From Planctomycetota bacterium (GTDB taxonomy: Bacteria > Planctomycetota > Phycisphaerae > SM23-33), in the NCBI GenBank assembly GCA_022705325.1, contig JAKJER010000003.1, positions 181,419-245,418 of the forward strand: a stretch of 64,000 bases of DNA, written 5' to 3'. Under the pieces are notes generated by a model that saw only the letters and a list, made by a program, of their open reading frames with translations, did not search any database and was not told where the DNA came from. Below, piece after piece: positions 9,201 to 42,402 of this stretch (positions are counted from its first letter, which is position 1; each line of letters begins with the position of its first letter). A program made the position numbers and the translations under genes.

Positions 9201-9521
9201 GTAGAGTCCGGCTTCTCGCATGGCCTTGCGCAGGGAGTCGCAGGCGGATGCGTCCCCTTCCAGGCAATGCACGACCTGCGCGCCGTTGCGGGCCAGGGCG
9301 AGGGGCAGGACAGGCGACCGCGGAGCGACGAAGACGCAGACTCCGCCGGTCGGGGTCGAGCCGAGGACCTCGCGGGCAAACGGACCGAAATCGTCAGAAT
9401 CGCGCACGAACTCGAGCGAGGGCTGTGCGTCCGCGGCGGCGACCGACGAGGCCGAGCCCAGCAGAAGCGCCAAGACGCACATACCGGCAACTCCACAACA
9501 TCGTGTTCCGTTCATGTTCAT
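6267..9521 (-). CDS. Secreted PQQ-like beta-propeller repeat protein (BamB/PQQ-repeat family), 1084 aa
   Basis: N-terminal signal peptide MNMNGTRCCGVAGMCVLALLLGSASSVAAADA. It has repeated PQQ-type blades (for example VYAALVDEHHVICLDAADGRQVWEFAADGRV...GYVYCLRAADGALAWR). Codon usage matches neighbouring genes. Confidence 0.6.
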   Translation of the reverse strand: MNMNGTRCCGVAGMCVLALLLGSASSVAAADAQPSLEFVRDSDDFGPFAREVLGSTPTGGVCVFVAPRSPVLPLALARNGAQVVHCLEGDASACDSLRKAMREAGLYGQVSVTAWSPPYLPHVDDLVNVIVVPDWPAAAKAGLTVKEVLRALAPLGTAWLGGAVDAREVSAQAKAAGAGTQTVDAKTGQAWLKLSKAWPADIDQWGHYLHGPDGNPVARDLRVGPPRHYQWISDPVWSRSHETDSTPSTLVTANGRILSIQDAAPISLAGQNDLPDKWSLVCQDAFNGVVLWQVPIRRWGWREWKHTWFNTRPGDIPLNIQKRLVAAGEFVYVTLGYRAPVSQLDARTGTVLQTYAGTEGANEILYLDGRLIISVVEGERLRVKAVDGASGKVLWTSDKTYAGTTTDYIRWKEMHGGSTPERLDPAANLAADGRIVVLIDASQIAALDLATGKEKWKADFPLDAADRTAGGMQNFRNHLWVGAMIVTDGVVVHASPSKLAGLSADTGKLLWEQPKKFIQHLWYEWKDVFVIDGLVWTWSAELDRKPLTGGTKKQGGTLAPRWANGYDLHTGARKKQVEVGEIFTTHHHHRCYRDKATVRYILASRRGTEFVSLEGGKHVVDNWVRGTCHVGMMPANGLQYAPPHPCQCYIDEKLNGFNALTAARESARRPAAGPRLTTGPAMGRIKAEPEGLDDWPTLRHDAMRTGSTPAALSGELRPLWTVRPGVKVSAPVVAGGRVYAALVDEHHVICLDAADGRQVWEFAADGRVDSPPTIHKGLVLFGSVDGYVYCLRAADGALAWRLRAGTGDRLISAMGQLESPWPIHGSILVQGDVAYAAAGRSSHLDGGIVLLALDPATGKVLHEKTLSGPEYVDGTFKQNFNLPMGYLNDVLVGDGANSVYMRTAAFDDKLSPVRSQPTMKIVSGILDGTYFKRVPWVLGKDYARLIVHDQRRACYVRMFDSLQGLNPEVYFAPGKKGYLLLARDKDSKAAAPAWSKRIAVRARTMVLAGERLVLAGPPDEIDPADPLGSFEGRKGGLLHVYDSTSGERLAELKLHSPPVLHGAALAGGRLVLVLEDGSIVCRGR

Positions 9522-11047: not shown

Positions 11048-11213
11048 GGCTCTACTGTATCCGCAGAAGCAGGGCACGAACAGCCTTCTGCATGGGGAAT
11101 AGGCCTGGAGGTTCTGCTCCGGGCGGACTGGGCCAAAGCAACGGCCCCGCCGACAGGATCGACGGGGCCGTTGAAGCTTTCGCGAACGGACGCGGCGAGA
11201 CGCCGCATCTTCC

Positions 11214-12518
11214 CTACACCCAATCCACCTTCAGCAGATGGACCGAGCAGGAGATGCACGGGTCGTAGGAGCGGACGAGCATCTCCAGGTCGTGACCGAT
11301 CTGGTCCTGGGTGCGAGTGTTGATGACCTCGGGGACGTACTTCTGCATGTCGTGGTCGATGTTGGCCAGGTTCATCCCGGTCGGGATGATGCAGTTGGCC
11401 TTGGTGCAGACGCCCTTCTCGTCGTAGGTGTAGTCGTGGACGAGCAGGCCGCGGGGCACCTCGGTCAGGCCGATGCCGCGCCCGGCCTTGGGCGTGACAT
11501 TCGGGGCCAGCGTCGCTTCCGTGAGGTCCATCTTCATGATCTGGTCCATCAGCTTGACGGCCTCGTCGTAGAAATGGGCGATCTCGACGGTCTGGGCGAG
11601 GTTGTTGTAGTACGGGTTGTAGCACGGCGCCTTGAGGCCGAGCTTCTTGGCGGCGGCCTGCCCGCGATCATTGAGCTGGGCGGCGTTGTTGTTGAACCGC
11701 GACAGGGCGCCGACGGCCAGGCAGGCGTCCACGTTGCGGACGTGTTTGGAGGTCGAGTGCTCGACGCAGAACTCGTGGATGACCTTGGCGTAGTCGTGGA
11801 TGTCGTGCACGCCGGTCTTGGAGCTCTTGAGCTGCCCGTTGTAGAAGGCGTACTCGTCCGGGTGGGTCAGGCTGACGTCCTCTCGCTCGCGCTCGAACTT
11901 GGGGAAGGCCCCGCCGATGGCGGCGACGGTCTCGACGGTGGCGTCGACGTCGTCGTTGAGCATGAGGATGTAGTCCTGGACCTTCTTGAGGTCCTTCTTG
12001 CTGGGCACGTGGGTGAAGCCGCCCGGGACCAGGGCGATCGGGTGGACGTGCCGGCCCGCGACGGCGTCGCAGATGACGTTGCCGACCTTCTTCATCCGGA
12101 GGGCCCGTTTGACCACTTCCGGGTGGCTGGAGGCCAGCGGCAGGACGCTGCCGGCGCCCAGGGCGTCCGGAGCGGCCAGGAAGTACACGTGCAGGACGTG
12201 ACTTTGGATTTCCTCGGCCAGCAGCATGAGCTTGCGGAGGGCGAGCACCTCGGGCGTGAGTTTGAGTCCGAAGGCGTCGTCGGTGGCCTGGATGGAGGCG
12301 GTGGTGTGCCCGACCGAGCAGATGCCGCAGATCCGGCAGGTGAGCATGGCGGTGTCGCGCCAACTCAGGCCGCAGATCATGGACTCGAAGACGCGGGGCG
12401 TCTCGACGATCTGAAGGTGGCACTTCTCGACCTTGCCGTCGCTGGCCCGGACGATGATGTTGCCGTGGCCCTCGACGCGGGTCAGGTGATGGATGTTGAT
12501 GTCAAGTGTCTTTCCCAT
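11214..12518 (-). CDS. hydA: [NiFe]-hydrogenase large (alpha) subunit, group 3b sulfhydrogenase type
   Basis: N-terminal Ni-binding motif RICGICSVGH and C-terminal DPCISCSVH. It is 434 aa, matching group 3 cytoplasmic hydrogenases. It is the last gene of a beta-gamma-delta-alpha operon, as in Pyrococcus hydBGDA. Confidence 0.85.
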   Translation of the reverse strand: MGKTLDINIHHLTRVEGHGNIIVRASDGKVEKCHLQIVETPRVFESMICGLSWRDTAMLTCRICGICSVGHTTASIQATDDAFGLKLTPEVLALRKLMLLAEEIQSHVLHVYFLAAPDALGAGSVLPLASSHPEVVKRALRMKKVGNVICDAVAGRHVHPIALVPGGFTHVPSKKDLKKVQDYILMLNDDVDATVETVAAIGGAFPKFEREREDVSLTHPDEYAFYNGQLKSSKTGVHDIHDYAKVIHEFCVEHSTSKHVRNVDACLAVGALSRFNNNAAQLNDRGQAAAKKLGLKAPCYNPYYNNLAQTVEIAHFYDEAVKLMDQIMKMDLTEATLAPNVTPKAGRGIGLTEVPRGLLVHDYTYDEKGVCTKANCIIPTGMNLANIDHDMQKYVPEVINTRTQDQIGHDLEMLVRSYDPCISCSVHLLKVDWV

Positions 12519-12543
12519 ATGTATCTCCGTTCTCGGCTAGCGG

Positions 12544-13311
12544 TTAGCTCTTGAGGGCCCCGTCCGCCGGCGGCTCGGCCACCGGGAAGACGCCGTTGAA
12601 CATGCGGAACTCGGCCATCACCTGTTCAAGGGTCAGCCCATACTCCGCCAGCACGTCCTTGGCGGCGTTCTTGTTGAAGTCGGTGATCAGGCCCCGGCAG
12701 GCGTAGCACCGCCCGCCGTACGACGGGCACCAGGCGTTGCAGCCGGCCTTGGCGACCACGCCCATGCAGTACTCGCCCTTCTGGAAGAGGCAGACGTTCT
12801 CGCGCAGCTTGCACTCCACGCAGACCGGGTAGTCCGGGATCTGCGGGGTCCGCCCGGCCAGCACGCTCTTGACGACTTCCAGGAACTCCTGCTTGGGGAT
12901 GGGGCAGCCGTTGATCTTGACGTCGACCTTGATGGCGGCCTCGATGGGCAGGGCCGGGCTGGTCTCGTACCAGGAGGCGGCCTCGCCGTAGACCTTCTTC
13001 ATGGACTCGTCGATGCCTCGGAAGTTCTTGAGGACGTTGAGCCCGCCGGTGCAGGCGCAGGCGCCCAGGGCGACGACGATCTTGGCGCACTTGCGGATGT
13101 GCTCGAGGCGCTTGCGATCGCTCTCGCGGGTGAAGGCGCCCTCGATGAAGGCGATGTCATACTCGTCGCTCTTCTCGTCAATGGCCTCACGGAAGTTGAC
13201 GATGTCCACCGCGCCGACGATGCCCAGCAACTCGTCCTCGCAGTTGAGGACCTGGAGCTGGCAGCCTTCGCAGCTCGTGAAGTCGTGAAACGATACTCTC
13301 GGTTTTGCCAT
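12544..13311 (-). CDS. hydD: [NiFe]-hydrogenase small (delta) subunit, group 3b
   Basis: ATG at 13311 (MAKPRVSFHDFTSCEGCQ). Cys ligands for proximal/medial/distal FeS clusters (CEGC, GACACTGG, GCPIPK, CxxC...C). About 255 aa. The ORF-track start at 13422 is an upstream extension. Confidence 0.8.
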   Translation of the reverse strand: MAKPRVSFHDFTSCEGCQLQVLNCEDELLGIVGAVDIVNFREAIDEKSDEYDIAFIEGAFTRESDRKRLEHIRKCAKIVVALGACACTGGLNVLKNFRGIDESMKKVYGEAASWYETSPALPIEAAIKVDVKINGCPIPKQEFLEVVKSVLAGRTPQIPDYPVCVECKLRENVCLFQKGEYCMGVVAKAGCNAWCPSYGGRCYACRGLITDFNKNAAKDVLAEYGLTLEQVMAEFRMFNGVFPVAEPPADGALKS

Positions 13312-13313
13312 AG

Positions 13314-14162
13314 TTAGATTCCTTCTCGAAGCCGCATGACCTCGGCGTAGTTGAAAATGGGCCCTTCCTGGCAGACGTAGACGTTGCGGATCTGGCAGTG
13401 CCCGCACTTGCCCAGCCCGCACTTCATCCGGCGCTCCAGGGAGCAGTAGATGCTGGTCTTTCGCAGACCCATCGCCAGGGCCTCCAGGACCGCGAACTTG
13501 AACATGATGGGCGGGCCGATGATGAAGGCGGCCGTGTTGGCCGGGTCCACCTTGGGCATCTTGCGGAACAGGGTGGTGATCACGCCCGTGTTGCCCTTCC
13601 AGTTCTCGTCGCCGCGGTCGACGGTCATCAGGAAGGTGGAGTCCTTACGCTGGGCCCAGGCTTCCAGGTCCTTGGTGAACAGCAGGTCCGCCGGCGTGCG
13701 GGCGCCGTAGAGGATAGTGACGTTGCGGAACTTCTCACGGTGGTTCAGGGCGTCCAGAATGAAGCTGCGGCAGGGCGCCAAACCAAGACCGCCGGCCACG
13801 AACAGCAGGTCCTTGCCGGCCACCTTGTCCATGTCAAAACCGTTTCCGAACGCGCCTCGCAGGCCGACCGTCTGCCCGACCTGCAGCGTGTGCAGGGCGT
13901 TGGTGACGTCGCCGACCGCCCGGATGCACATTTCCAGGTCGCCGCGCTTGCCCGGGGCCGAGCAGATCGAAATGGGCGCCTCGCCCACGCCGAACACGCT
14001 GACTTCCATGAACTGGCCGGCGGCGTACTGAATGCCCTGGCCGTCGGCAAACTCGAAGCGGAACCAGGCTTCCTTGGGGGTGAACTTGCAGGCCTCGGCA
14101 ACCGTGGCCACACGGGGCAGGTACGGAGAGGCCGACGCTGGATTGCTCATTGTCATCGTCAT
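13314..14162 (-). CDS. hydG: Hydrogenase gamma subunit: FAD/NAD(P)-binding ferredoxin-reductase-like protein with C-terminal [2Fe-2S] (PyrK-like)
   Basis: FNR-like fold motifs (GQFMEVSVFGVGEAPISICS, LLFVAGGLGLAP) and C-terminal CGLGKCGHCQ cluster motif. 282 aa, position 2 of the operon. Confidence 0.8.
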   Translation of the reverse strand: MTMTMSNPASASPYLPRVATVAEACKFTPKEAWFRFEFADGQGIQYAAGQFMEVSVFGVGEAPISICSAPGKRGDLEMCIRAVGDVTNALHTLQVGQTVGLRGAFGNGFDMDKVAGKDLLFVAGGLGLAPCRSFILDALNHREKFRNVTILYGARTPADLLFTKDLEAWAQRKDSTFLMTVDRGDENWKGNTGVITTLFRKMPKVDPANTAAFIIGPPIMFKFAVLEALAMGLRKTSIYCSLERRMKCGLGKCGHCQIRNVYVCQEGPIFNYAEVMRLREGI

Positions 14163-14180
14163 GAATTTCCCTTTCTGGGC

Positions 14181-15275
14181 TTAGATCTCCGCCGCTGCCT
14201 CATCGGCGATCTGCTGGAAGGTCTCGAGAATGGAGATGCCGGCCACGCAATGGGTCGAACACCGCCCGCAGCCGACGCAACCCGGCTTGCCCGTCCGCTC
14301 GAGGATGAACTTCCCCTTGCGGAAGACGCGGTGTCGCAGACGGCTGTCAGCGTGCTCGCGGAAGTTCTCGCCGCCGGCGACTTCGGCGAAAACGCGGAGT
14401 TGACAGGAATCCCAGCTTCGCACGCGCTCGCCGCTGGCGGCGTCCAGGCCCAGCTTGTCCTGCACGTCGAAGCAGTAGCAGGTCGGGCAGACGTTGGTGC
14501 AGCTTCCGCAGCTGAAGCAACGACGAGCGACGGCGTTCCACAGCAGCGAGTCGTAGCTGTTGGCCAGAAGCTCGGGCAGGTAACGGGCGTCGTAGGGCAG
14601 CCGCTTGGAGCAGGCCGCCGCCTTGGCCTTGTCGAAGGCGACCTTGGCGGCGTGATCGTCGCTCTTGGCGGGGCTGAAGCCGGCGCACTTGGTGATCATC
14701 GCCTGCCCGGCCTCGCTGCCGACTTCGACGAACCAGCGATCGCCCAGGTCGGTCAGGAACAGGTCCCAACCGGAAGCAGGCGCATCGAGCGTGTCCATGT
14801 CGGCCATGAACTGGTAGTCGTTGGCGTACTGGGCGACGTTCAGGCCGACGATCTTCGTGACGGCCCGCTTGGCCTGGTAGTACGGGTCGGCGGGGTCCTT
14901 GGCCATGGCGGCATCGAGGGTGGCGATGGCGTGGAGGTCCATCGGCTGCACGCCCAGGATGACGGTGGGCTTGGCCTGCACCTGGGGCTGGACATTCTCG
15001 GGCCCTCGCCCGCCGAAGCTCAACAGCGTCTCTCGCTGGGGCATCAGGAACTTCTTGGGCGGCAGGATGGACAGGTCGTAGTCCATGCGGATGGCGGCCT
15101 GGTCCTCGGGCGTCTGGACCTCCTGGAAGGCGAAGGCCGGCCCCTTGGCCATGGGCGCCACGACCCGGTTGTCGGCGCTCAGGCTGCCGACAAACTCATC
15201 AAACTTCGACTTTGGAAGTATCTGCGGAAGCATCTTGGGTCCTTTCTTTGCCCGCCTGCGGCGGGCGGCGTTCAC
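14181..15275 (-). CDS. hydB: Hydrogenase beta subunit (4Fe-4S cluster protein of sulfhydrogenase type). The likely true start is the ATG at about 15232 (MLPQILPKSKF), preceded by AAGGA. The track start at 15275 is a GTG-like upstream extension.
   Basis: Cys motifs CFSCGSCTNVCPTCYC and CVGCGRCSTHCVAG are typical of HydB/HyhB. About 350 aa from the ATG. It directly precedes hydG, hydD and hydA on the same strand. Confidence 0.75.
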   Translation of the reverse strand: MNAARRRRAKKGPKMLPQILPKSKFDEFVGSLSADNRVVAPMAKGPAFAFQEVQTPEDQAAIRMDYDLSILPPKKFLMPQRETLLSFGGRGPENVQPQVQAKPTVILGVQPMDLHAIATLDAAMAKDPADPYYQAKRAVTKIVGLNVAQYANDYQFMADMDTLDAPASGWDLFLTDLGDRWFVEVGSEAGQAMITKCAGFSPAKSDDHAAKVAFDKAKAAACSKRLPYDARYLPELLANSYDSLLWNAVARRCFSCGSCTNVCPTCYCFDVQDKLGLDAASGERVRSWDSCQLRVFAEVAGGENFREHADSRLRHRVFRKGKFILERTGKPGCVGCGRCSTHCVAGISILETFQQIADEAAAEI

Positions 15276-16725
15276 AAGACTCGGAATTCAAGCTCGCATT
15301 GCGATCAGTTGGGGGATGAGAATCGTCCGTGTCGCCCGCCGCAGTTTCGCCCGGTGCGCCCTGCACCTGGGCCAGCGGAAGAAGCACGGTTACGGTGGTG
15401 CCTTCTCCGTGCGTGCTGGACAGGCTTACGCGCCCGCCCAGCCGCTGGACCACCGTCTGCACGATGGGCAGACCCAGTCCGGTCCCGCCGGCCAACTGCC
15501 TGGCCTGGGGGGCGCGGTGGAACTCGTGGAACACCTGCTCCTGCTGGACGGGGGCGATGCCGATGCCGGTGTCAGCGACCACCAGTTCGGCCCGGTCCCC
15601 TGGCAGTCGCCTCAAGGTCACGTCCACCCGTCCGCCGGACAGGGTGTACTTGAGGGCATTGGACAGGAGGTTCTGGACCACCACCGCCAGGGCGTCGCTC
15701 CAGGCCTGTACGTACAGCGGCCCGTCCTCGGTGTGGACCGTGAGGGCGAGCCCCTTGTCGCGGGCCTGGGCCTTCAACGGGTCGACCGCCTCCGCCAGCA
15801 CCGACGCGAGGTCCACGCTCGACCGATTGCGGATCTCCACGCCGTTCTCGCGGACGGTGGACAGCAGCAGCATTTCGTCCATCTGCTCCACCAGTTCGCT
15901 CGCCCGGTCGCGGATGCGTCGGGCCAGGGCCGCCTGGCGGTCCGCCAGCGGGCTCACCGTCTCCATCGCGCCCAGCATGGAATGAATGGCCGCCACGTTG
16001 CCGCGAAGCTGGTGGCTGGAGAGCCTCAGGAAGCGGCTCTTGGTGCGGTCCAGCTCGGCCAGTTCCTCGTTGGCCCGGGTGAGCCGACGGTTGATGTTTC
16101 GCAGCCGTGACAGGATCGACCGGGTGAACCAGACGCTCAGCAGAAGCAACGCCCACCAGAAGGCCCCGGCCAGAAGAACCAGCGCGTTGTGGGCGACGGC
16201 CCCGGCGTGAGGCGAGCCCTGCCACTGCCCGGTCCAGAATGCCCCGCAGACCCACGCCCCGGCCAAACCGGCCTGAACGTAGGAGTCTCGCGAGGGCAGC
16301 AGGCTGGCCCCCACCGCGACGTGGAAGACCAGGATGGCGGCCAGGAACCATACGTCGGTGAAGGCGACCAGGAAGCCCAGCATGGCCAGATCCAGGGCCA
16401 TTTGGACGTTGGTTACGACGCGGACGAAGCGTCCGACCTGGGCCGGGTCGTGCCGCTCGCAGCGGCCGAGCACCCACCACATCAGGGCGCTGTGCAGGGC
16501 CATCAGGCCCGCCACCGTCAGCAGGGCTGCCGGGGTGGCCTGGGCGGCGTCCCAGGGGCGCACCGCCCGCACCCACACCGCGGCGGCGCCCAGCACCGCC
16601 AAGGCGCCCGCGTAGAACCAGCGCAGCACAACCAGCCACTGCACGCGGGCGACCAGGACGGCCACAAAGCTCGGCGTGAGCACCGGGTCGACGGGGCGGG
16701 AGGATGTCGCGGGGGCCTGGCTCAT
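15199..16725 (-). CDS. Sensor histidine kinase, with a polytopic membrane N-terminus and a HisKA plus HATPase_c C-terminus
   Basis: About 6-7 predicted TM helices in the N-terminal half. H-box LSSHQLRGNVAAIHSML, N-box NLLSNALKYT, G-boxes DTGIGI and GGTGLGL. Its 3' end overlaps the hydB start region. Confidence 0.8.
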   Translation of the reverse strand: MSQAPATSSRPVDPVLTPSFVAVLVARVQWLVVLRWFYAGALAVLGAAAVWVRAVRPWDAAQATPAALLTVAGLMALHSALMWWVLGRCERHDPAQVGRFVRVVTNVQMALDLAMLGFLVAFTDVWFLAAILVFHVAVGASLLPSRDSYVQAGLAGAWVCGAFWTGQWQGSPHAGAVAHNALVLLAGAFWWALLLLSVWFTRSILSRLRNINRRLTRANEELAELDRTKSRFLRLSSHQLRGNVAAIHSMLGAMETVSPLADRQAALARRIRDRASELVEQMDEMLLLSTVRENGVEIRNRSSVDLASVLAEAVDPLKAQARDKGLALTVHTEDGPLYVQAWSDALAVVVQNLLSNALKYTLSGGRVDVTLRRLPGDRAELVVADTGIGIAPVQQEQVFHEFHRAPQARQLAGGTGLGLPIVQTVVQRLGGRVSLSSTHGEGTTVTVLLPLAQVQGAPGETAAGDTDDSHPPTDRNASLNSESCERRPPQAGKERTQDASADTSKVEV

Positions 16726-16741
16726 GGACGATCGGGCAATC

Positions 16742-17125
16742 CTACTTCAGCACCGTCTGGATCTTCTTCTGGAGCTGGGCCATGTCCAGCGGCTTGCGAA
16801 GGAAGCCCTGAACGGGCAGGAAGTCGCCGGCCTTGTCCGGCTCGAGCACCTCGCCCGTCTTCTCCTCGATGCAGGTAATCATGAGGATGGGAACGTCCTT
16901 GGTCTGGGGGTTCTCGCGGATCTTGTAGGCCAGGTGGAAACCTTCGGTGTCGGTTTCCATCATCACGTCCAGCAGGATGAGGTCGACAGCCTGCTTGTCC
17001 AGCAGCGCCATGGCCTCGGCCCCGCTGCTGGCGCCGACCACTTCGTAGCCGGCGCCGCTGAGCATGATCTGCGTCGCGTCCCGCAGGTCGGGGTCATCGT
17101 CAACGATCAGGATCTTCTTCGCCAT
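16742..17125 (-). CDS. Stand-alone response-regulator receiver domain protein (CheY-like)
   Basis: MAKKILIVDDDPDLRD...DLILLDVMM...FLRKPL has the receiver-domain acid pocket (DD, D54-equivalent, K). 127 aa with no output domain. Confidence 0.85.
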   Translation of the reverse strand: MAKKILIVDDDPDLRDATQIMLSGAGYEVVGASSGAEAMALLDKQAVDLILLDVMMETDTEGFHLAYKIRENPQTKDVPILMITCIEEKTGEVLEPDKAGDFLPVQGFLRKPLDMAQLQKKIQTVLK

Positions 17126-17181
17126 TCAGGGACTCCTTCTCTGGTATTGGGACGGCCTTCGTAGCCGTCTTCCGTCTTGTC

Positions 17182-18201
17182 TTAACAGATCCGGGGCAAC
17201 TCCTCACCGTAAGGCATCTGCACGATCCGCCGACCACCGGCGGCGGTTGCCAATTCCACAATGGGACTCTCGCCGGCCGGGCCAATCGTCCCGATGACCG
17301 CCGCTCGCGAGCCGATCGCGTGTCGCCGCATCACGTCCACCGCGCGCCGGGCGGCGCCCTCGGCCACCACCGCCACCAGCTTGCCCTCGTTGGCTACCTG
17401 GAGCAGGTCCAGCCCGAGCATCTCGGCGGCCGAGCGGGCCGTCCGATGAGCGGGGATGGCCGACTCCTCGATCTCGATGTCCACGCCGCGCGACTCGGCG
17501 ATGTCCGCCAGCACGGCAGCCAGCCCGCTGCGGGTAGGGTCGCGCATGAAGCGGAGGTTCTCGCCCAACTCGTCCAGCAGGTCGCTCACCAGTTCGTGCA
17601 GCGGGGCGCAATCGCTGACCAGGTCGGCGGTAAAGCTCAGGCCTTTGCGCTGACTCATGACGGCCAGTCCGTGCTCGCCCAGCGGACCCGACAGGACGAC
17701 GCGATCGCCACTCTGGATGCGATCGAAACCCAGGCGGACGTCGGCGCCAATCAGGCCGACGCCGGAGGTATTGACGATGATCCCGTCGAGGGCGCTTCGC
17801 TCGACGACCTTGGTGTCGCCCGTGACGACGCGGATGCCGGCCTGGCGGGCCTGGCGCCCCGCGGAGTCCAGCACGCGCTGGAGCAGGTCGATCTCCAGAC
17901 CTTCCTGGAGGACCAGTCCCATGCTCAGGGCCAGCGGCTTGGCGCCGCAGACGGCCAGGTCGTTGATCGTGCCGCAGACAGCCAGCTTGCCGATGTCTCC
18001 GCCGGGAAACTCCAGCGGCTGGACGACGTACATGTCGGTCGTGAAGGCCAGCCGCCCGCCGCCGGTCTCCAGCACGGCGGCATCCGCCAGCGCGTGCGGA
18101 TCCTGGCCCCCGCCCAGCGCGGGCAGGATCACGTCGCGGATCAACTCGGCGGTCAGTTGACCTCCTCCGCCGTGTGCCAGTTGAATGCGGCTGGTATCCA
18201 C
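17182..18201 (-). CDS. hypE: Hydrogenase maturation factor HypE (AIR-synthase-related). Start is a GTG at 18201 that overlaps the hypD stop (TAGTG).
   Basis: N-terminal IQLAHGGGG and C-terminal ELPRIC (the HypE PRIC motif). AAGGA RBS 7 nt upstream of GTG. The 641-aa track ORF is an alternate-frame extension through hypD. Confidence 0.85.
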   Translation of the reverse strand: MDTSRIQLAHGGGGQLTAELIRDVILPALGGGQDPHALADAAVLETGGGRLAFTTDMYVVQPLEFPGGDIGKLAVCGTINDLAVCGAKPLALSMGLVLQEGLEIDLLQRVLDSAGRQARQAGIRVVTGDTKVVERSALDGIIVNTSGVGLIGADVRLGFDRIQSGDRVVLSGPLGEHGLAVMSQRKGLSFTADLVSDCAPLHELVSDLLDELGENLRFMRDPTRSGLAAVLADIAESRGVDIEIEESAIPAHRTARSAAEMLGLDLLQVANEGKLVAVVAEGAARRAVDVMRRHAIGSRAAVIGTIGPAGESPIVELATAAGGRRIVQMPYGEELPRIC

Positions 18202-19295
18202 TATCGTTTCCTTGCGGGCATTTCGTACTTGAAGGCGGCGGCGCAAGCCCCTTCCGACGAGACCATGCACGGCCCGACCGGATCCCGCACGGTGCATCGC
18301 CGGGCGAACAAGGGGCACTCGGACGGGTGCAACCGTCCGCAGATCACGTCGCCGCATCGACAGCCGGGCATCTCGTAGCTTTCTTCGGCCGGCAGATCGA
18401 AGCGGCGCTCGGCGTCGAACTCGGCCCATTCGTCGCGCAAAGCCATTCCGCTGGCGGGAATGACGCCCAGTGCCCTCCAAGGCGCGTCGACGATCTCGAA
18501 GACCTCGTCCAGCACCTCTCGGGCGCGGGCGTTGCCCTCGCGGGAGACGCTCGGATAGACCGTCATGGCCCGGGGCTCGCCGGCCGACAGCTCGTCCAGA
18601 ATCTCCAGCACGCCCAGTAGGACCTGCTGGGGATCGAAGCCCGCGACCACGCAAGGCCGGCCGTAGTCGCGGACGATCTGGTCGTAGGCCCCGTAGCCGA
18701 GGATCACGCTGACGTGACCCGGGCAGAGGAAGGCGTCGATCTTGACGTCGCCGCCGGCCAGCAGGGCATTCATGGCGGGCAGGACCCACTTGTGGGCGGT
18801 CAGGACGCTGAAATTCCGGAGCCCTTCCTGTCGCGCATCGCGCACCGCCAGGGCCGTCCCCGGGGCGGTGGTCTCGAAGCCCACGCCGAGGAACACCACC
18901 TCGTGATCGGCGTGTTGGCGGGCCAGATCCAGCGCCTGCTGAATGGAGTAGACGACCTCGACGCGGGCGCCGACGGCGCGGGCCTCGCTCAGCGAACCCT
19001 GGCGTCCCGGCACGCGGACCATGTCGCCGTAGGTGGCTACGATAATGTCGGGGCGGTTTCGGGCCAGGCCAACTGCGCGGTCGATGTAGGACTGGTCGGT
19101 GACGCAAACGGGGCAGCCGGGTCCGCTCACGAGTCGGATGTCGGCGGGTTGAAGTATCGTTCTCAGCCCCCCTCGCGCAATAGCCATGGTGTGGGTGCCG
19201 CAGACCTCCATGATCTGGACGCCACCCATGTCCCGCGCCAGCCGCAATGCGGAGGCGTGAATTTTTTCACAAATGTCTGTGCAACCCGTCGTCAT
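18201..19295 (-). CDS. hypD: Hydrogenase maturation factor HypD
   Basis: GGVQIMEVCGTHT, GPGCPVC and CPVCV motifs characteristic of HypD. 364 aa. Confidence 0.9.
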   Translation of the reverse strand: MTTGCTDICEKIHASALRLARDMGGVQIMEVCGTHTMAIARGGLRTILQPADIRLVSGPGCPVCVTDQSYIDRAVGLARNRPDIIVATYGDMVRVPGRQGSLSEARAVGARVEVVYSIQQALDLARQHADHEVVFLGVGFETTAPGTALAVRDARQEGLRNFSVLTAHKWVLPAMNALLAGGDVKIDAFLCPGHVSVILGYGAYDQIVRDYGRPCVVAGFDPQQVLLGVLEILDELSAGEPRAMTVYPSVSREGNARAREVLDEVFEIVDAPWRALGVIPASGMALRDEWAEFDAERRFDLPAEESYEMPGCRCGDVICGRLHPSECPLFARRCTVRDPVGPCMVSSEGACAAAFKYEMPARKR

Positions 19296-19432
19296 CGTCT
19301 CTGCGCCCTGGATTCTCTATCTCGGCGGTTGGCCTGCCCCCGCGGTTGCAGACGCCCACCCCGGCCAACGCCAACCCCCCGGCGTGATGCCGCTTGACCG
19401 TCCGTAGCCAAACACTTCTCTCCGCTGTCGCT

Positions 19433-19669
19433 TCACCCTGCCTCGCTCGTCGCGGCAGCATCCATCTGCCGCAGCAGGTCGTACGTAGCCAATGCATCCG
19501 CCTCGTCCAGCACCGTGATCGCATAGCCTGCGTGCACGAGCACCCAGTCGCCGATCTTGGCCTCCGGAACGAGCGTCAAAACAACATTCGTGCGGCTGCC
19601 GTCCAAGACGACCGTCGCACGATCATGCTCATTCATTGTCTCGATCTGGGCTGGAATGGCAAGGCACAT
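19433..19669 (-). CDS. hypC: Hydrogenase maturation chaperone HypC
   Basis: Begins MCLAIPAQI (the invariant MC(L/I)(A/G)(I/V)P N-terminus), about 78 aa, ATG at 19669. The ORF-track start at 19780 is an upstream extension. Confidence 0.85.
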   Translation of the reverse strand: MCLAIPAQIETMNEHDRATVVLDGSRTNVVLTLVPEAKIGDWVLVHAGYAITVLDEADALATYDLLRQMDAAATSEAG

Positions 19670-19814
19670 TTTGCGATTTTTTCCTCTCGACCGAATGCAA
19701 GTCGTCCTTTTGTACGTCATGGGACCGCCGAGGTCCACTGGATTTCCAGAAAAGCACCCCGCAGATCGGGCGTGCAGCATCTGTCCCCCCCCGTCCGCAC
19801 TGGAAGTTCGCCGA

Positions 19815-22199
19815 CTATCCGCTATGCCTCCTGTCGCCGCGGCGATCGCCGCCCGCGCTCCGGCGGGCAGCCGCGATCACCGCCTGACCCAGGGCCACCC
19901 CCGCATCGTTGCACGGAATCTGCCGGTGGGTCAGCACGGTAAAGCTCATCGCCTTCAGTCTCGCCTCCAGGCGCGTGGCCAGGTACCGGTTGATGAAGCA
20001 CCCCCCCGACAGGGCGACCACGTCCAGGCCGGTCTCGGCCCGGGCTCGACCGGCCCCGTCGGCCAGGAAGGCCACCGCCGTGTTGTGGAACTTGGCCGAG
20101 ATCAATCCGATGTCGGCGCCGGCGTCGGCGTCGGCGACGATCTGCTCGACCATGGGTCGCAGGTCGATGACGAAGGGTCCTCCGGCGGTCACACGGTAGC
20201 TGTAGCAGTCGGCGATGCCCTGACGGGCGGCGACTTCCAGGCGCGCAGGCGCCTGGGCCTCGTAGGCGTTGCGGTCGGCGATCCGACAGAAGGCAGCCAC
20301 CGCATCGAACCATCGCCCCAGCGAACTGCTGGGCGGACAGTTCACGCCAATGGAGAGCATCTCCACGGCGTTGCGCACGGCCTCGCGGGCGGCCTCCAGC
20401 TTGCGCGCGATGTCCATCTCCATGCACTCGGGCCCGAAGGCGTCGAACAGGGCCGCCACAGCCGGACGGTAGGTCTCGACGGCCGCGGCGTCGCCCCCCA
20501 CCAGGGGCAAGTACCGCAGGTGGCCCAGTCGCTCGTAGGTGCACAGGTCGGCACGGAAGATCTCGCAGCCCCAATTGGCCCCGTCGTCGCCATGGCCCGT
20601 GCCGTCGCAGGCGATGCCGATGACCGGGGCGGTGTGCCCGTTCTCCGCCAGGCACGAGACCACGTGGGCGTGGTGGTGCTGAACGCGGGCGATGGGGATG
20701 GCCCAGCGCCCGGCCAGTTCGCCGTGATGGCGCCTCACCGCGTACTCGGTGGACAGGTAATGCGGGTGCATGTCGCAGGCCACCAACTCGGGGGTGACGT
20801 CGTACAGGGCCTCCAGGTGGCTGACAGTGTCGATGAACTGGCGATAGGTGCGCCCGTCCTTGAGGTCGCCGATGTGCTCGCTGAGCACCGCGTGGTCGCC
20901 TTTAAGCAGGCAGATGGTGTTCTTTAACTCGCCGCCGACAGCCAGAACGGCCGGGCCGCCGGCCACGGGGGCGGCCAGGCGGACGGGCTGGGGCGCGTAG
21001 CCGCGAGCGCGGCGGACGACAATCAGTTGACCGTCGTCTCTCCCGAGCACGACGCTGTCGTCCACACGGCGTTCGATGCGACGGTTGTGGAGCATGAGGG
21101 CGTCGGCGATGCGCCCGAGGTGCGCGATGGCCGAGTCGTTGTCTTTGACCAGGGGCTCGTCGCTGTAGTTTCCGCTGGTCATCACCAGGGGGCCCAGCCC
21201 CTGCTGGAAAAGCAGATGATGCAGGGGCGCGTAGGGCAGCATGACGCCCAGCGTGTTGAGGCCCTGGGCGACGGAAGCAGCCACTCGATCGCCGTCTTTG
21301 TTCACGGGCAGGATCACGATCGGCCGTAGCGACCCGCTCAGCAGCTTACGGGCCTCGCCGGTCAGGCGCACCAGACGCCCGGCCTGCTCGATGTCGGCGA
21401 CCATGATGGCGAAGGGCTTGGCGTCGCGGCGTTTCCGTTGTCGCAGGCGGCGGACGACGTGGTCGTCGTCGGCCCGGCAGACCAGGTGAAAACCGCCCAG
21501 GCCTTTGATGGCCAGTATCTTGCCCTCCTGCAGCATCCGGGCCGCCGAGGCGATCGGGTCATTGGAAGGAATCTGCTGGCCGCGCGTGTCCACCAGCCAG
21601 ACCGCCGGACCGCACTTCTCGCAGGCGGTCGGCTGGGCGTGGAAACGCCGGCTCGACGGGTCGCCGTACTCGCTCGCGCACGCCGGGCACAGGGCGAAGT
21701 CCGCCATCGTCGTGTTCGGGCGGTCATACGGAATCCGCGTCACGATGCTGTATCGCGGGCCGCAGTTGGTGCAGTTGATGAACGGGTACTTGTATCGCGG
21801 GTCGCCCGGGGCGTTCATCTCCCGCAGGCAGTCGCCGCAGGTGGCCGTGTCCACCGTCACCTGGGCGTCGGCGATTTCGCCCCCTTCGCTGGCGAGGATC
21901 TCGAAGTGTTTCTCGCCCACGATGACCTCGGCCGGAAGTTGGCTGCACCGGTCGATGGCCGCCAGCGGGGGCGACTCCTCCTGAAGCCGTCGGACGAACT
22001 CGGTCAGGCGATCGGGACTTCCCTGGACCTGGATGCTGACGCCGCGGGCGTCGTTGAGCACCCAACCGGTCAGGTGCAGTTCGCTGGCCAGGCGGTACGC
22101 GAAGGGACGAAACCCCACCCCCTGGACCTGCCCGGTGACGAACAGACAGGTCCGCTGGAGATCACCCGAAAGCTTCTGGATATTGGCCACGGTAGTCAC
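19815..22199 (-). CDS. hypF: Carbamoyltransferase HypF
   Basis: Acylphosphatase domain (VTGQVQGVGFRPFAYR). Two Zn-finger pairs (CGDC...CTNCGPRYSI and CPAC...CEKCGP). YrdC-like and Kae1/YgjD-like carbamoyltransferase domains. 794 aa. Confidence 0.9.
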   Translation of the reverse strand: MTTVANIQKLSGDLQRTCLFVTGQVQGVGFRPFAYRLASELHLTGWVLNDARGVSIQVQGSPDRLTEFVRRLQEESPPLAAIDRCSQLPAEVIVGEKHFEILASEGGEIADAQVTVDTATCGDCLREMNAPGDPRYKYPFINCTNCGPRYSIVTRIPYDRPNTTMADFALCPACASEYGDPSSRRFHAQPTACEKCGPAVWLVDTRGQQIPSNDPIASAARMLQEGKILAIKGLGGFHLVCRADDDHVVRRLRQRKRRDAKPFAIMVADIEQAGRLVRLTGEARKLLSGSLRPIVILPVNKDGDRVAASVAQGLNTLGVMLPYAPLHHLLFQQGLGPLVMTSGNYSDEPLVKDNDSAIAHLGRIADALMLHNRRIERRVDDSVVLGRDDGQLIVVRRARGYAPQPVRLAAPVAGGPAVLAVGGELKNTICLLKGDHAVLSEHIGDLKDGRTYRQFIDTVSHLEALYDVTPELVACDMHPHYLSTEYAVRRHHGELAGRWAIPIARVQHHHAHVVSCLAENGHTAPVIGIACDGTGHGDDGANWGCEIFRADLCTYERLGHLRYLPLVGGDAAAVETYRPAVAALFDAFGPECMEMDIARKLEAAREAVRNAVEMLSIGVNCPPSSSLGRWFDAVAAFCRIADRNAYEAQAPARLEVAARQGIADCYSYRVTAGGPFVIDLRPMVEQIVADADAGADIGLISAKFHNTAVAFLADGAGRARAETGLDVVALSGGCFINRYLATRLEARLKAMSFTVLTHRQIPCNDAGVALGQAVIAAARRSAGGDRRGDRRHSG

Positions 22200-22490
22200 G
22201 CGCCTCCGGGGACATTGTACAGACCGCCCGTGCCCCCAACCAAGCCAATCTGCGAAGCCGGGCGGGAACGCCTCTCACGTGGTGATATGTTTGTCGCCCC
22301 CGCAGGGCTCGCGTGCCGCCCGGGGGCATCGGGACGGAACGGTCCGGCAGACTCTTCGGTTCCGCCCGTCGTCTGCCTTCGCCCGCCGATTCGCGGAATC
22401 GCGCGATCCCCCCCCTTCCGTTCGTGGGCTGGTTCGACTATCCTGTCCGTCCAGTCACCGGGTCACTTCCGGACCTCTCAGGAGACCGAC

Positions 22491-42184: not shown

Positions 42185-42402
42185 CAGAGCGCCGGCGGTC
42201 TTGCGTTGGTAACTGGAAGTTGGCAGCCTGGAGCGGTAGACAACCTCCGCGAACCTGCCTTGCGGGCCAAGCAGCCTGTGGGGCGTGAGGGACGGTTGGA
42301 TCGCTCGCATGGATTGGTTGACCCGCCTCTTGCCTTCGGCGGGCCCGAGGCCGCGAGGGGCCAAGAGACCGACGGACAGCGATCGACAGTCGAAGACCGA
42401 AC

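What the first reader, a model, noticed from the sequence alone, without database searches (positions are those of the whole stretch)
11214..22199. Group 3b [NiFe]-hydrogenase, hypFCDE and an embedded two-component system as a single minus-strand supercluster
The hyhB/G/S/L-type operon (beta with two 4Fe4S motifs, gamma FNR-like with a 2Fe2S motif, delta small subunit, alpha with RICGICSVGH...DPCISCSVH) indicates a cytoplasmic bidirectional NAD(P)-linked hydrogenase. It sits directly downstream of a membrane histidine kinase and a receiver-only response regulator, with the same-strand hypF-C-D-E further upstream. The kinase stop overlaps the hydB start region by about 35-75 nt. This suggests the sensor, regulator and structural genes are co-transcribed or at least tightly coupled. 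The kinase has a polytopic membrane input region without a recognisable PAS/GAF domain. It could sense redox, H2 or membrane state.
Basis: partly seen in the sequence, partly recalled or inferred. Interest (0 to 1): 0.55.

Follow-up and report, generated by a model that had tools for sequence, protein, structure and literature searches.

The report
Hydrogenase operon with embedded two-component system
A planctomycete from an anaerobic digester carries a ten-gene, one-strand cluster in which a membrane sensor kinase and a bare receiver protein sit between the hydrogenase maturation genes and a cytoplasmic NAD(P)-type [NiFe]-hydrogenase. This arrangement is conserved in related uncultured Phycisphaerae, so the pair probably belongs to the hydrogenase, but how it acts is not known.

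Summary
Window 11214-22199 (minus strand) encodes hypF-hypC-hypD-hypE, a 127-aa receiver-only response regulator, a 508-aa six-helix membrane histidine kinase, then hydB-hydG-hydD-hydA.

- **Hydrogenase class:** all four subunits match Pyrococcus/Thermococcus sulfhydrogenase (group 3b) best.
- **Gene spacing:** gaps run from -35 to +145 nt. The kinase overlaps hydB by 35 nt.
- **Conservation:** the regulator-kinase pair lies between hypE and hydB in 10 other metagenome or MAG loci (kinase 37-46% identical). Every kinase ortholog whose context I could read sits there. Three sister loci lack the pair and one keeps only the regulator.
- **Kinase sensor domain:** the family is a distant relative of the RegB/PrrB (and PilS-type) six-helix domain. 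The window's copy has lost RegB's quinone-site motif, has no redox cysteine, and its partner has no DNA-binding domain.
- **Wider pattern:** related bare receivers lie beside other group 3b clusters, a [FeFe]-hydrogenase-kinase fusion and a CODH/ACS cluster.

Best reading: a dedicated, probably co-transcribed signalling module that couples the hydrogenase to a membrane-derived signal. Its output is through protein contacts or an unlinked partner. Signal and target are inferred. This is a new variant of a known kind, of moderate interest.

The parts
19815..22199 (-). hypF (carbamoyltransferase, 794 aa)
   Evidence: TIGR00143 scores 765 bits against a cutoff of 466. Pfam finds Acylphosphatase, zf-HYPF, Sua5_yciO_yrdC, HypF_C and HypF_C_2.
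19433..19669 (-). hypC (78 aa, starts MCLAIP)
   Evidence: PF01455 HupF_HypC at 84 bits; TIGR00074 at 81.8 bits against a cutoff of 48.
18201..19295 (-). hypD (364 aa)
   Evidence: TIGR00075 at 410 bits against a cutoff of 193.
17182..18201 (-). hypE (339 aa, GTG start overlapping the hypD stop by 1 nt)
   Evidence: TIGR02124 at 389 bits against a cutoff of 252. The start follows the public gene calls.
16742..17125 (-). Stand-alone receiver (REC-only) response regulator, 127 aa
   Evidence: Pfam finds Response_reg only. D10, D11, D53, T84 and K111 are invariant in 10 orthologs, with 79% mean column identity. A GAAGGAG ribosome-binding site lies 7 nt upstream of the ATG.
15199..16725 (-). Six-helix membrane histidine kinase, 508 aa (H238; N, G1, F and G2 boxes; disordered tail 455-508)
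   Evidence: HATPase_c. The AlphaFold2 model has six transmembrane helices, the last continuous with the DHp helix. The family profile matches a genuine RegB kinase at 98.8% probability.
15199..15233 (-). 35-nt overlap of the kinase 3' end with the hydB 5' end
   Evidence: Read directly from the sequence. The same 35-nt overlap occurs in L001. It is absent from L002, L003, L015, L026 and L027.
14181..15233 (-). hydB (beta subunit, 350 aa, two CxxCxxCxxxC motifs)
   Evidence: Fer4_22. NCBIfam ShyB at 213 bits, HydB at 195 bits and AsrA at 131 bits.
13314..14162 (-). hydG (gamma subunit, 282 aa, FAD/NAD(P)-binding plus a [2Fe-2S]-type site)
   Evidence: FAD_binding_6, NAD_binding_1 and DHODB_Fe-S_bind. 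NF006220 at 252 bits and HydG at 219 bits.
12544..13311 (-). hydD (delta, small subunit, 255 aa)
   Evidence: Oxidored_q6. NCBIfam HydD at 193 bits and ShyD at 148 bits.
11214..12518 (-). hydA (alpha, [NiFe] large subunit, 434 aa; L1 RICGICSVGH, L2 DPCISCSVH followed by a 7-aa C-terminal extension)
   Evidence: NiFeSe_Hases. ShyA at 266 bits and HydA at 245 bits. The best PDB match is sulfhydrogenase I alpha, 9nez_D, at 216 bits.
22200..22490 (.). Intergenic region between hypF and a divergent esterase gene; the likely promoter region of the cluster
   Evidence: Gene positions. No consensus sigma-70 site was found. No motif is shared with the upstream regions of relatives.

Best explanation
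This is a ten-gene, one-strand hyp-TCS-hyd cluster of an uncultured Phycisphaerae-type planctomycete. HypFCDE build the Fe(CN)2CO part of the active site. HydBGDA is a cytoplasmic four-subunit group 3b [NiFe]-hydrogenase that links H2 to NAD(P)(H).

Between the two gene sets lies a two-gene signalling cassette. It encodes a six-helix membrane histidine kinase whose sensor domain family is distantly related to RegB/PrrB and PilS, and a cognate stand-alone receiver.

**Proposed mechanism**
1. The cassette is transcribed together with the hydrogenase genes.
2. The kinase reads a signal within the membrane. There is no periplasmic or cytoplasmic sensor domain, and helix 6 runs directly into the phospho-accepting helix.
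3. The kinase phosphorylates the receiver on D53.
4. The receiver has no DNA-binding domain. It therefore acts by protein-protein contact or by passing or draining phosphate to an unlinked partner, and so tunes hydrogenase synthesis, maturation or activity to the cell's membrane or respiratory state.

**Shown:** gene content, hydrogenase class, domain architecture, intact catalytic residues, conserved gene order.

**Inferred:** co-transcription, that the hydrogenase is the target, the nature of the signal, and the output route.
For: **Gene identities and hydrogenase class:**

**Spacing:** gaps run from -35 to +145 nt, and terminator-like sites are no more frequent than in shuffled sequence (8 found against 5.8 +/- 2.2).

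**Conserved gene order**
- The order RR-HK-hydB (with hypE upstream where the contig reaches that far) occurs in the window and in L001, L002 (HK at the contig edge), L003, L015, L016, L020, L026, L027, L028 and L113.
- Kinase identity to the window copy is only 37-46% in the ten loci compared (L113 not measured).
- All 10 kinase orthologs with readable context are in this position.
- In several loci the hypE-RR spacer is only 26-34 nt and holds little more than a ribosome-binding site.

**Kinase**
- H238 and the N, G1, F and G2 boxes are invariant.
- The model shows six transmembrane helices joined directly to the DHp helix.
- The transmembrane regions of family members hit only ActS/PrrB/RegB models in NCBIfam (E down to 5e-10) and Pfam 6TM_PilS.
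- The family profile matches an annotated Azospirillum RegB at 98.8% probability. The family's TGGxxNP aligns on RegB's TGGLSNPF.

**Receiver**
- Mean column identity is 79%, and the phospho-pocket is invariant.
- The beta3-alpha3 and alpha4-beta5 surfaces are also invariant. This points to a conserved partner.

**Independent links between this receiver subfamily and hydrogenases**
- L018 keeps the receiver between hypF and hydB without the kinase.
- Receivers 39-43% identical follow group 3b hyd/hyp genes in L033, L034, L035, L041, L051 and L087. That is 6 of 61 loci with at least 600 nt upstream.
- In L039 a relative follows a [FeFe]-hydrogenase-domain::kinase fusion.

**Precedents**
- RegB/RegA controls hydrogen utilisation in Rhodobacter (PMC5359404).
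- M. smegmatis Hyd3 (msmeg_3931-3927), which I recall to be group 3b, lies beside a DosR-type cluster and is induced by oxygen limitation (PMC2799521).
Against: - **No expression or phosphotransfer data.** Co-transcription and the regulatory target are inferred only.
- **The cassette is dispensable.** L017, L023 and L024 have hypE directly followed by hydB.
- **The cassette also occurs away from hydrogenases.** L031 and L032 carry the same receiver plus six-helix kinase with no hydrogenase nearby. In L032 a LuxR-type DNA-binding regulator follows.
- **Receiver context is not exclusive.** A receiver 57% identical sits alone beside a CODH/ACS cluster.
- **The window's kinase lacks the RegB sensing features.** It has TD--VWF where RegB has GGxxNPF, has no cysteine in the DHp region (cysteines only at 89, 160 and 484), and alone gives no hit to RegB or PilS transmembrane models. 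Quinone sensing is therefore doubtful for this copy.
- **The H-box is atypical.** It reads HQLRG, with Q at H+1 and G at H+4. From general knowledge of HisKA kinases, this may mean weak kinase activity or no phosphatase activity.
Confidence: 0.6

Rival explanations
1. The pair is a general redox or global regulator that merely travels with the hydrogenase genes. The bare receiver is an accessory part (phosphate sink or connector) of a branched pathway. The real output is an unlinked DNA-binding regulator controlling many genes, of which the hydrogenase may or may not be one.
For: - The same receiver plus six-helix kinase cassette occurs without hydrogenase genes in L031 and L032. In L032 a REC-GerE (LuxR-type) regulator follows.
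- The distant kinase homologue P0021 sits among four receivers, one of them with an AsrC/Lrp-type (AsnC) HTH domain.
- Receiver relatives lie beside CODH/ACS and beside other kinase types.
- The cassette has been lost without loss of the hydrogenase (L017, L023, L024).
- RegB/RegA itself is a global regulator (PMC5359404).
Against: - All 10 kinase orthologs with readable context lie exactly between hypE and hydB, despite 37-46% identity.
- Spacers are too short for separate promoters in several loci.
- No REC+HTH gene was found among the window ORFs scanned.
Confidence: 0.25
2. The system senses H2, in the manner of HoxBC-HoxJ-HoxA or HupUV-HupT-HupR. The hydrogenase, or its redox state, signals directly to the kinase, and the kinase sets hydrogenase expression.
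For: - The kinase and the hydrogenase are encoded side by side, with translational overlap.
- Relatives of the receiver pair with a [FeFe]-hydrogenase-domain::kinase fusion in L039. HydDB lists that class as a putative H2 sensor (PMC5037454).
Against: - The kinase has no PAS or other cytoplasmic input domain that could dock a hydrogenase. It is a six-helix membrane protein with only about 17 cytoplasmic N-terminal residues and a non-conserved disordered tail.
- The hydrogenase is a full catalytic four-subunit 3b enzyme, not a group 2b sensor.
- The regulator is not NtrC-type.
Confidence: 0.07
3. The kinase is a PilS-type sensor of membrane pilin or pseudopilin levels and is unrelated to hydrogen metabolism.
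For: - Pfam 6TM_PilS is the Pfam domain that matches the family's transmembrane region (E 4e-13 for P0021).
- The window carries a T2SS/T4P-like cluster at 40.4-64 kb.
Against: - That cluster is more than 23 kb away on the other strand.
- Gene order is conserved with hyp/hyd, not with pil or gsp genes.
- The window kinase itself gives no 6TM_PilS hit.
- PilS partners with the NtrC-type regulator PilR, which is absent here.
Confidence: 0.03

Closest known systems
Group 3b [NiFe]-hydrogenases (Pyrococcus furiosus / Thermococcus kodakarensis sulfhydrogenase I and II; M. smegmatis Hyd3)
   Same: It has the same four-subunit alpha-beta-gamma-delta layout. Beta is AsrA-like with two [4Fe-4S] motifs. 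Gamma is AsrB-like with FAD/NAD(P) binding and a [2Fe-2S]-type site. The small subunit is short. The large subunit carries the L1 and L2 CxxC pairs. These enzymes give the best sequence matches in NCBIfam and the PDB.
   Different: Scores are far below the narrow Thermococcales equivalog cutoffs (266 against 700 bits), so this is a distant bacterial member. No kinase-regulator pair is described inside those operons. HydDB lists kinase-linked classes only for [NiFe] group 2b and [FeFe] group C1 (PMC5037454).
RegB/PrrB/ActS-RegA redox two-component system
   Same: The sensor is a homologous six-helix transmembrane domain joined directly to the kinase core. At family level it aligns to a genuine RegB, with TGGxxNP on RegB's GGXXNPF quinone-site loop and the LRW of helix 1 on RegB's IRW. 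RegB/RegA also controls hydrogen utilisation (PMC5359404).
   Different: - The window's kinase has lost the GGXXNPF motif, and the F is L or I in all embedded orthologs.
- There is no Cys265-type redox cysteine.
- The H-box is HQLRG, not HELGT/SP.
- The partner is a bare receiver, not RegA (REC plus Fis-type HTH).
- Scores are far below the family cutoff (38.7 against 350 bits).
- The organism is a planctomycete, not a proteobacterium.
HoxBC-HoxJ-HoxA / HupUV-HupT-HupR H2-sensing cascade (group 2b)
   Same: A histidine kinase and a response regulator are encoded with hydrogenase and hyp genes, presumably to control hydrogenase expression.
   Different: That system uses a dedicated sensory hydrogenase, a soluble PAS-containing kinase and an NtrC-type DNA-binding regulator. 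Here there is no sensory hydrogenase, the kinase is a membrane protein, and the regulator has no output domain.
DosS/DosT-DosR (DevR) control of M. smegmatis Hyd3
   Same: A hydrogenase that I recall to be group 3b (the paper calls it Hyd3) lies next to two-component regulator genes and is induced when respiration is limited (PMC2799521). The same 'redox valve' logic is proposed here.
   Different: DosS and DosT are soluble haem-GAF kinases, and DosR is a LuxR-type DNA binder. They form a large hypoxia regulon and are not embedded between the hyp and hyd genes.
PilS six-helix sensor kinases (Pfam PF25323)
   Same: The transmembrane domains of relatives pass the Pfam gathering score (P0021 at 49.9 bits, P0003 at 33.3 bits).
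   Different: The window protein gives no hit on its own. There is no PAS domain, no PilR partner and no linkage to pilin genes.

Membership tests
[NiFe]-hydrogenase group 3b | Large subunit with the L1 (RxCGxCxxxH) and L2 (DPCxxCxxH) nickel-binding cysteine pairs | tested here: met
   R62-I-C64-G-I-C67-S-V-G-H71 and D419-P-C421-I-S-C424-S-V-H427.
[NiFe]-hydrogenase group 3b | Large subunit closest to sulfhydrogenase-type alpha subunits rather than to groups 3a, 3c, 3d, 1, 2 or 4 | tested here: met
   NCBIfam gives ShyA 266 and HydA 245 bits, against VhuA 160 and FrhA 132. The PDB gives sulfhydrogenase I alpha 212-216 bits, against Mvh 172, Frh 144 and Hox 128.
[NiFe]-hydrogenase group 3b | Four-subunit operon with an AsrA-like beta subunit (2x[4Fe-4S]) and an AsrB-like gamma subunit (FAD/NAD(P), [2Fe-2S]) | tested here: met
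   hydB: Fer4_22, ShyB 213 bits, AsrA 131 bits, two CxxCxxCxxxC motifs. hydG: NAD_binding_1, FAD_binding_6 and DHODB_Fe-S_bind, AsrB 241 bits, HydG 219 bits.
[NiFe]-hydrogenase group 3b | Assignment by the HydDB classifier | not testable with these tools
   HydDB is a web tool and there is no network access.
[NiFe]-hydrogenase group 3b | NAD(P)H-linked reversible H2 turnover | not testable with these tools
   This needs an enzyme assay. It is inferred from the family only.
Thermococcales sulfhydrogenase I/II equivalogs (NCBIfam NF040828-NF040836) | Score above the curated equivalog cutoff | tested here: not met
   266 against 700 bits (ShyA), 213 against 690 (ShyB), 219 against 650 (HydG), 193 against 500 (HydD). 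It is a distant relative, not an ortholog-level member.
Hyp maturation set | HypF, HypC, HypD and HypE above curated cutoffs | tested here: met
   765 against 466, 81.8 against 48, 410 against 193 and 389 against 252 bits.
Hyp maturation set | HypA, HypB and a HycI/HybD-type endopeptidase encoded nearby | tested here: not met
   None was found among the larger window ORFs scanned with Pfam. Small ORFs were not scanned exhaustively. HydA still carries a 7-aa extension after DPCISCSVH. L041 has hycI next to hydA.
Canonical HisKA-type two-component pair | Kinase with a phospho-accepting His and N, G1, F and G2 boxes; receiver with the DD, D, T and K residues | tested here: met
   H238, N356, D385/G387/G389, F399 and G414/G416/G418 are invariant. 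D10, D11, D53, T84 and K111 are invariant. Caveat: the H-box is HQLRG, and Pfam HisKA does not reach E 0.001 on the window protein.
ActS/PrrB/RegB redox-sensing kinases | Homologous six-helix transmembrane sensor domain | tested here: met
   This holds at family level. hhalign of A1 against Azospirillum RegB gives 98.8% probability, E 5e-17, starting from helix 1. Transmembrane-only queries hit only NF033792 and NF045988. The window protein alone matches RegB only in the ATPase domain.
ActS/PrrB/RegB redox-sensing kinases | GGXXNPF quinone-binding loop between helices 3 and 4 (PMC3000548) | tested here: not met
   The window has AFTD--VWF. Orthologs have GGxxNP(L/I) in five to six cases, GGxxSP in two, and a degenerate loop in the rest.
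ActS/PrrB/RegB redox-sensing kinases | Redox-active cysteine (Cys265) between the His and the ATPase domain (PMC3000548) | tested here: not met
   Cysteines occur only at 89, 160 and 484, none within 238-340.
ActS/PrrB/RegB redox-sensing kinases | Cognate RegA/PrrA/ActR regulator (REC plus HTH) adjacent, and a score above the family cutoff | tested here: not met
   The adjacent regulator is REC-only. The best family score is 38.7 bits against a cutoff of 350.
PilS-like six-helix domain (Pfam PF25323) | Match above the gathering score (27 bits) | tested here: not met
   The window protein gives no hit at E <= 1. Relatives P0021 (49.9), P0003 (33.3), P0009 (32.7), P0037 (27.3) and the L031 kinase (30.7) pass.
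HoxJ/HupT H2-sensing cascade | Group 2b sensory hydrogenase, PAS-containing soluble kinase, NtrC-type regulator | tested here: not met
   None of the three is present.

The most novel reading that the evidence does not exclude
The 127-aa bare receiver belongs to a widespread subfamily with the motifs DVMMETxTEGF and D(F/Y)LPVxxFxxKP. In this reading the subfamily is a dedicated partner of anaerobic Ni/Fe redox enzymes. Once phosphorylated by whichever kinase a lineage supplies (RegB-like six-helix, Cache-HAMP, or a [FeFe]-hydrogenase-domain kinase), it would bind the hydrogenase or its maturation machinery directly. That would be post-translational control of a [NiFe]-hydrogenase by a two-component system, which has not been described.
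Probability: 0.15. Interest if true: 0.7.

Novelty: new variant of a known kind. Interest (0 to 1): 0.42.

Why it matters
Group 3b hydrogenases are among the most widespread hydrogenases in environmental genomes. They are thought to act as NAD(P)H/H2 redox valves, yet their regulation is known only in a few organisms: SurR in Thermococcales (from my own knowledge) and a DosR-type system in mycobacteria.

A conserved kinase-receiver pair embedded in the operon would give a concrete, testable regulatory input for fermentative H2 metabolism in Phycisphaerae. These are common polysaccharide degraders in digesters and sediments.

The repeated appearance of one bare-receiver subfamily next to hydrogenase and CODH/ACS clusters hints at a shared control layer that does not use DNA binding. 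The RegB-like sensor domain with an eroded quinone site is also a natural case for asking what such six-helix domains sense.

Tried and rejected
1. **Metagenome scan with the receiver alignment.** Only 31-49% relatives came back and no true orthologs. The loci were still useful for context.
2. **Fold search of the kinase model against AFDB.** The library was not available. PDB searches were not run, because the kinase core would dominate the matches.
3. **Shared regulatory motifs upstream of hypF, hypC and the receiver across loci.** Only ribosome-binding sites and GC-rich chance 9-mers were shared.
4. **Promoter and terminator scan.** One promoter-like site inside hypC was found, and terminator-like sites were at the background rate. 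This is uninformative for a planctomycete.
5. **Rfam and tRNA scans of the whole window.** Nothing was found, so there is no riboswitch or leader RNA of a known family.
6. **Search for hypA, hypB, a maturation protease or a DNA-binding response regulator in the window.** None was found.
7. **The public label 'Histidine protein kinase DivJ' for this protein.** I reject it as an automated best-hit name. The DivJ model scores 114 bits against a cutoff of 1000.
8. **A RegB sequence fragment recalled from memory.** It was used only as a probe to find real annotated RegB genes. All comparisons used the retrieved records.
9. **The 85-aa ORF at 19267-19524 in the hypC-hypD gap.** It was not examined further. 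It overlaps both the hypC 3' end and the hypD 5' end, so it is probably spurious.

Full report
**Source and observation**

The kinase encoded in the window is identical to a protein of the MAG 'Planctomycetes bacterium ADurb.Bin126' and to genes on several anaerobic-digester contigs. The window is 63-69% G+C, so most listed ORFs are spurious mirror frames.

Ten minus-strand ORFs carry clear family signatures: hypF (22199-19815), hypC (19669-19433), hypD (19295-18201), hypE (18201-17182), a 127-aa receiver-only response regulator (17125-16742), a 508-aa histidine kinase (16725-15199), hydB (15233-14181), hydG (14162-13314), hydD (13311-12544) and hydA (12518-11214).

Successive gaps are 145, 137, -1, 56, 16, -35, 18, 2 and 25 nt.

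The overlap is 35 nt if hydB starts at ATG 15233. Three things support that start: an AAAGGA ribosome-binding site, the N-termini of all homologues and the public gene calls. The alternative GTG 15275 (77 nt) has no support.

**Hydrogenase class**

- All four subunits score best against the Pyrococcus/Thermococcus sulfhydrogenase models (ShyA 266 and HydA 245 bits; ShyB 213; HydG 219; HydD 193). Only gamma has non-sulfhydrogenase models ranked higher: a generic hydrogenase-gamma subfamily model (252 bits) and AsrB (241 bits). Vhu/Mvh and Frh models score lower.
- Against all solved structures, the best matches are sulfhydrogenase I alpha chains at 212-216 bits over the full length. Mvh (3c) scores 172, Frh (3a) 144 and Hox (3d) 128.
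- HydA has the L1 pair C64/C67 and the L2 pair C421/C424, followed by a 7-residue extension. HydB has two CxxCxxCxxxC motifs. HydG has the FAD/NAD(P) fold and a C-terminal cysteine cluster.
- The AsrA/AsrB-like beta and gamma subunits are the hallmark of group 3b.
- The scores are far below the narrow Thermococcales equivalog cutoffs, so this is a distant bacterial member of the group.
- HydDB itself could not be run.
- hypA, hypB and a maturation protease were not found among the larger ORFs of the 64-kb window that were scanned.

**Is the embedded two-component pair conserved?**

The kinase has only about a dozen full-length relatives at 36-79% identity in 5.8 billion proteins. Identity then drops sharply to about 30% or less.

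Every relative whose contig could be read sits in the same place. A 127-aa receiver lies upstream, hydB lies downstream, and hypE or hypD lies further upstream where the contig allows. The loci are L001, L002, L003, L015, L026, L027 and L028, plus the MAG loci L016 and L020 found through HydA and L113 found through the receiver.

Identities to the window proteins are 37-46% for the kinase, 56-72% for the receiver, 61-82% for the Hyd subunits and 60-69% for the Hyp proteins. The gene order has therefore survived long divergence. Named records are Phycisphaerae or Planctomycetota MAGs.

The pair is not universal. L017, L023 and L024 have hypE directly followed by hydB. L018 has hypF-receiver-hydB with no kinase.

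In a neighbour-joining tree of HydB (+HydG), L017 and L023 are basal, while L024 and L018 nest among the loci that carry the pair. This fits one gain followed by losses, but the tree has no support values.

The 35-nt overlap is shared only with L001. Other loci have gaps of 15-160 nt. The hypE-receiver spacer is 26-34 nt in three loci and holds little beyond a ribosome-binding site. That argues for read-through transcription from the hyp genes.

**The kinase**

- AlphaFold2, using a 15-sequence alignment, gives mean pLDDT 75.5. It predicts six transmembrane helices (18-55, 64-89, 94-122, 127-142, 145-169, 176 onward). The sixth continues without a break into the DHp helix that carries H238. 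A normal ATPase domain follows, and the tail 455-508 is disordered.
- There is no PAS, GAF, HAMP or periplasmic domain.
- The tail is not conserved.
- H238 and the N, G1, F and G2 boxes are invariant. The H-box is unusual (SSHQLRG).
- The transmembrane part evolves faster than the cytoplasmic part (31% against 50% mean identity).
- Invariant polar residues in the membrane are R27 and R35-W36 in helix 1 and D112 in helix 3.
- Most orthologs have HFTGGxxNP(L/I) between helices 3 and 4.

That motif recalled the RegB quinone site, so I tested the link in three ways.

1. Transmembrane regions alone, scanned against 18,950 NCBIfam models, hit the ActS/PrrB/RegB and RegB models and essentially nothing else (two chance-level matches at E 0.4-1). 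E-values were 5e-10 for the L020/P0006 ortholog and 2e-9 for P0021. In Pfam the only match below E 0.01 was 6TM_PilS.
2. I retrieved genuine annotated RegB-family genes, each with an adjacent RegA gene, from Azospirillum and Rhizobium plasmids. The family profile aligns to the Azospirillum protein with 98.8% probability (E 5e-17) from helix 1 to the ATPase domain.
3. In a joint alignment, the family's TGGxxNP falls exactly on RegB's TGGLSNPF. Its LRW falls on RegB's IRW/LRW, and D112 falls on a RegB aspartate.

RegB's GGXXNPF loop and two helix-1 residues bind ubiquinone, and Cys265 adds a second redox input (PMC3000548).

The window's own kinase, however, reads AFTD--VWF at that loop. It has no cysteine in the DHp region and gives no RegB or PilS hit by itself. 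Among the embedded orthologs the N-P pair is intact in about five, is S-P in two and is degenerate in the rest. The F is never kept.

So the sensor fold is RegB/PilS-like, but membership of the RegB family fails on the defining motifs. Quinone sensing is only a weak lead for this copy.

**The receiver**

- It is a complete phospho-accepting REC domain with nothing attached.
- Across 10 orthologs, mean column identity is 79%. D10, D11, D53, T84 and K111 are invariant.
- Surface stretches are also invariant: ETxTEGFH after D53, and IEE..G..L....GD.LPV before K111. This suggests a conserved binding partner.
- PDB relatives are generic single-domain receivers.
- The receiver family is much larger than the detectable kinase family, with more than 120 clusters at 56% identity or above.
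- One 68% member again lies in the full hypFCDE-RR-HK-hydBGDA cluster (L113).
- One 57% member stands alone beside a CODH/ACS (Wood-Ljungdahl) cluster (L111).

Among 80 metagenome loci with 31-49% receiver relatives, six (L033, L034, L035, L041, L051, L087) have group 3b-type hyd or hyp genes immediately upstream. That is 6 of 61 loci with at least 600 nt of upstream sequence, and 6 of 18 when receiver identity is 39% or above. These receivers share the subfamily motifs. Other contexts in this set:

- In L041 the order is hydBGDA-hycI-receiver-kinase, with a Cache-HAMP kinase.
- In L039 the receiver follows a [FeFe]-hydrogenase-domain::HisKA-HATPase fusion. HydDB calls that class putative kinase-linked sensors (PMC5037454).
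- In L031 and L032 the receiver is followed by a six-helix kinase of the same family (100% probability, with GGIENPI) and no hydrogenase nearby. In L032 a LuxR-type regulator comes next.
- More distant kinase homologues also sit by redox modules. P0021 follows NuoE/NuoF-like genes and several receivers. P0037 is divergent from a Hdr/NuoEF/MvhD/[NiFe] cluster.

**Interpretation**

The best-supported reading is that the receiver-kinase cassette is an old two-gene module. It was inserted between hypE and hydB in one Phycisphaerae lineage and has been kept there as part of the hydrogenase operon.

The kinase senses something within the membrane, because it has no other input domain. It phosphorylates the receiver. 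The receiver lacks a DNA-binding domain, so it must act by protein contact or through an unlinked partner.

The physiological logic is inferred. A NAD(P)H-linked hydrogenase is a redox valve, and membrane or respiratory state is a sensible signal. This is the logic of RegB/RegA control of hydrogen utilisation (PMC5359404) and of hypoxia induction of M. smegmatis Hyd3 beside a DosR-type cluster (PMC2799521).

- **Shown:** the genes, the class, the architecture, the intact catalytic residues and the conserved gene order.
- **Not shown:** co-transcription, the signal, and the target.

The main rival is that the pair is part of a broader, branched redox network and the hydrogenase is only one neighbour. 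Three findings support it: the cassette occurs without a hydrogenase, it can be lost, and receiver relatives lie beside CODH/ACS. H2 sensing of the HoxJ type and pilin sensing of the PilS type are unlikely, because the required domains, partners and linkage are absent.

**Novelty**

Group 3b hydrogenases with adjacent hyp genes are ordinary. Two-component control of hydrogenases is known: group 2b/HoxJ-HoxA, RegBA and DosR.

What I did not find in the literature searched is a kinase-receiver pair embedded inside a group 3b operon, a RegB-like kinase paired with a bare receiver, or a bare-receiver subfamily recurring next to hydrogenase clusters. HydDB's scheme lists kinase-linked classes only for [NiFe] 2b and [FeFe] C1.

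I therefore rate this a new variant of a known kind, of moderate interest.

Noticed in passing
window 51273-63998 (+), running off the window end: A giant ORF of more than 4242 aa with about 40 Secretin_N domain repeats (1520 bits) and a proline-rich, extensin-like N-terminus. It lies directly after a T2SS/T4P-like cluster: T2SSE 40406-42184, T2SSF 42322-43605, T2SSK-like 46093-47865 and PilM-like 48035-50029. A secretin with this many N-domains is unusual.
   Followed up: partly
L039 789-2798 and 2858-3238: A [FeFe]-hydrogenase large-subunit domain is fused to HisKA-HATPase (HydDB group C1-like putative H2 sensor). A bare receiver 39% identical to the window's follows directly, then a REC-PAS hybrid kinase.
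   Followed up: partly
L111 9001-9384 and 9433-18384; also L043: A receiver 57% identical to the window's stands alone, convergent with a complete CODH/ACS (Wood-Ljungdahl) cluster that starts with a CbiA/DRTGG gene. In L043 a DRTGG-domain gene also precedes a receiver relative.
   Followed up: no
L007/L008 71-9700 and 10001-11380; L004 5657-11377: Distant homologues (29-31% identity) of the six-helix kinase also sit by redox modules. One is divergent from a Hdr-like/NuoEF/MvhD/[NiFe] (HoxH-type) cluster. The other ends a run of four receivers, NuoE-like, NuoF-like and ACT-domain genes.
   Followed up: partly
window 15199-15360 (kinase residues 455-508): The kinase has a 54-residue disordered, acidic/polar C-terminal tail. 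It is shared only with its 79% relative. The last 11 codons overlap hydB in another frame, so their conservation may only reflect hydB coding.
   Followed up: partly
window 38712-40226 (-): A 504-aa protein with many EF-hand calcium-binding repeats lies just upstream of the secretion cluster.
   Followed up: no
window 6267-9521 (-) and 9587-11077 (-): Directly downstream of hydA lie a HEAT-repeat/LamG protein and a 1084-aa PQQ-like beta-propeller protein. They are present with the cluster on the digester contigs but not in the other relatives, so they are probably unrelated to the hydrogenase.
   Followed up: no
window 19296-19432 and 19670-19814: Two unusually long spacers for this cluster, 137 nt and 145 nt, flank hypC. 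The second contains a weak hairpin followed by CTTTTCTGG at 19772-19755. In relatives these spacers vary from 25 to more than 500 nt. Internal promoters or processing sites are possible.
   Followed up: partly
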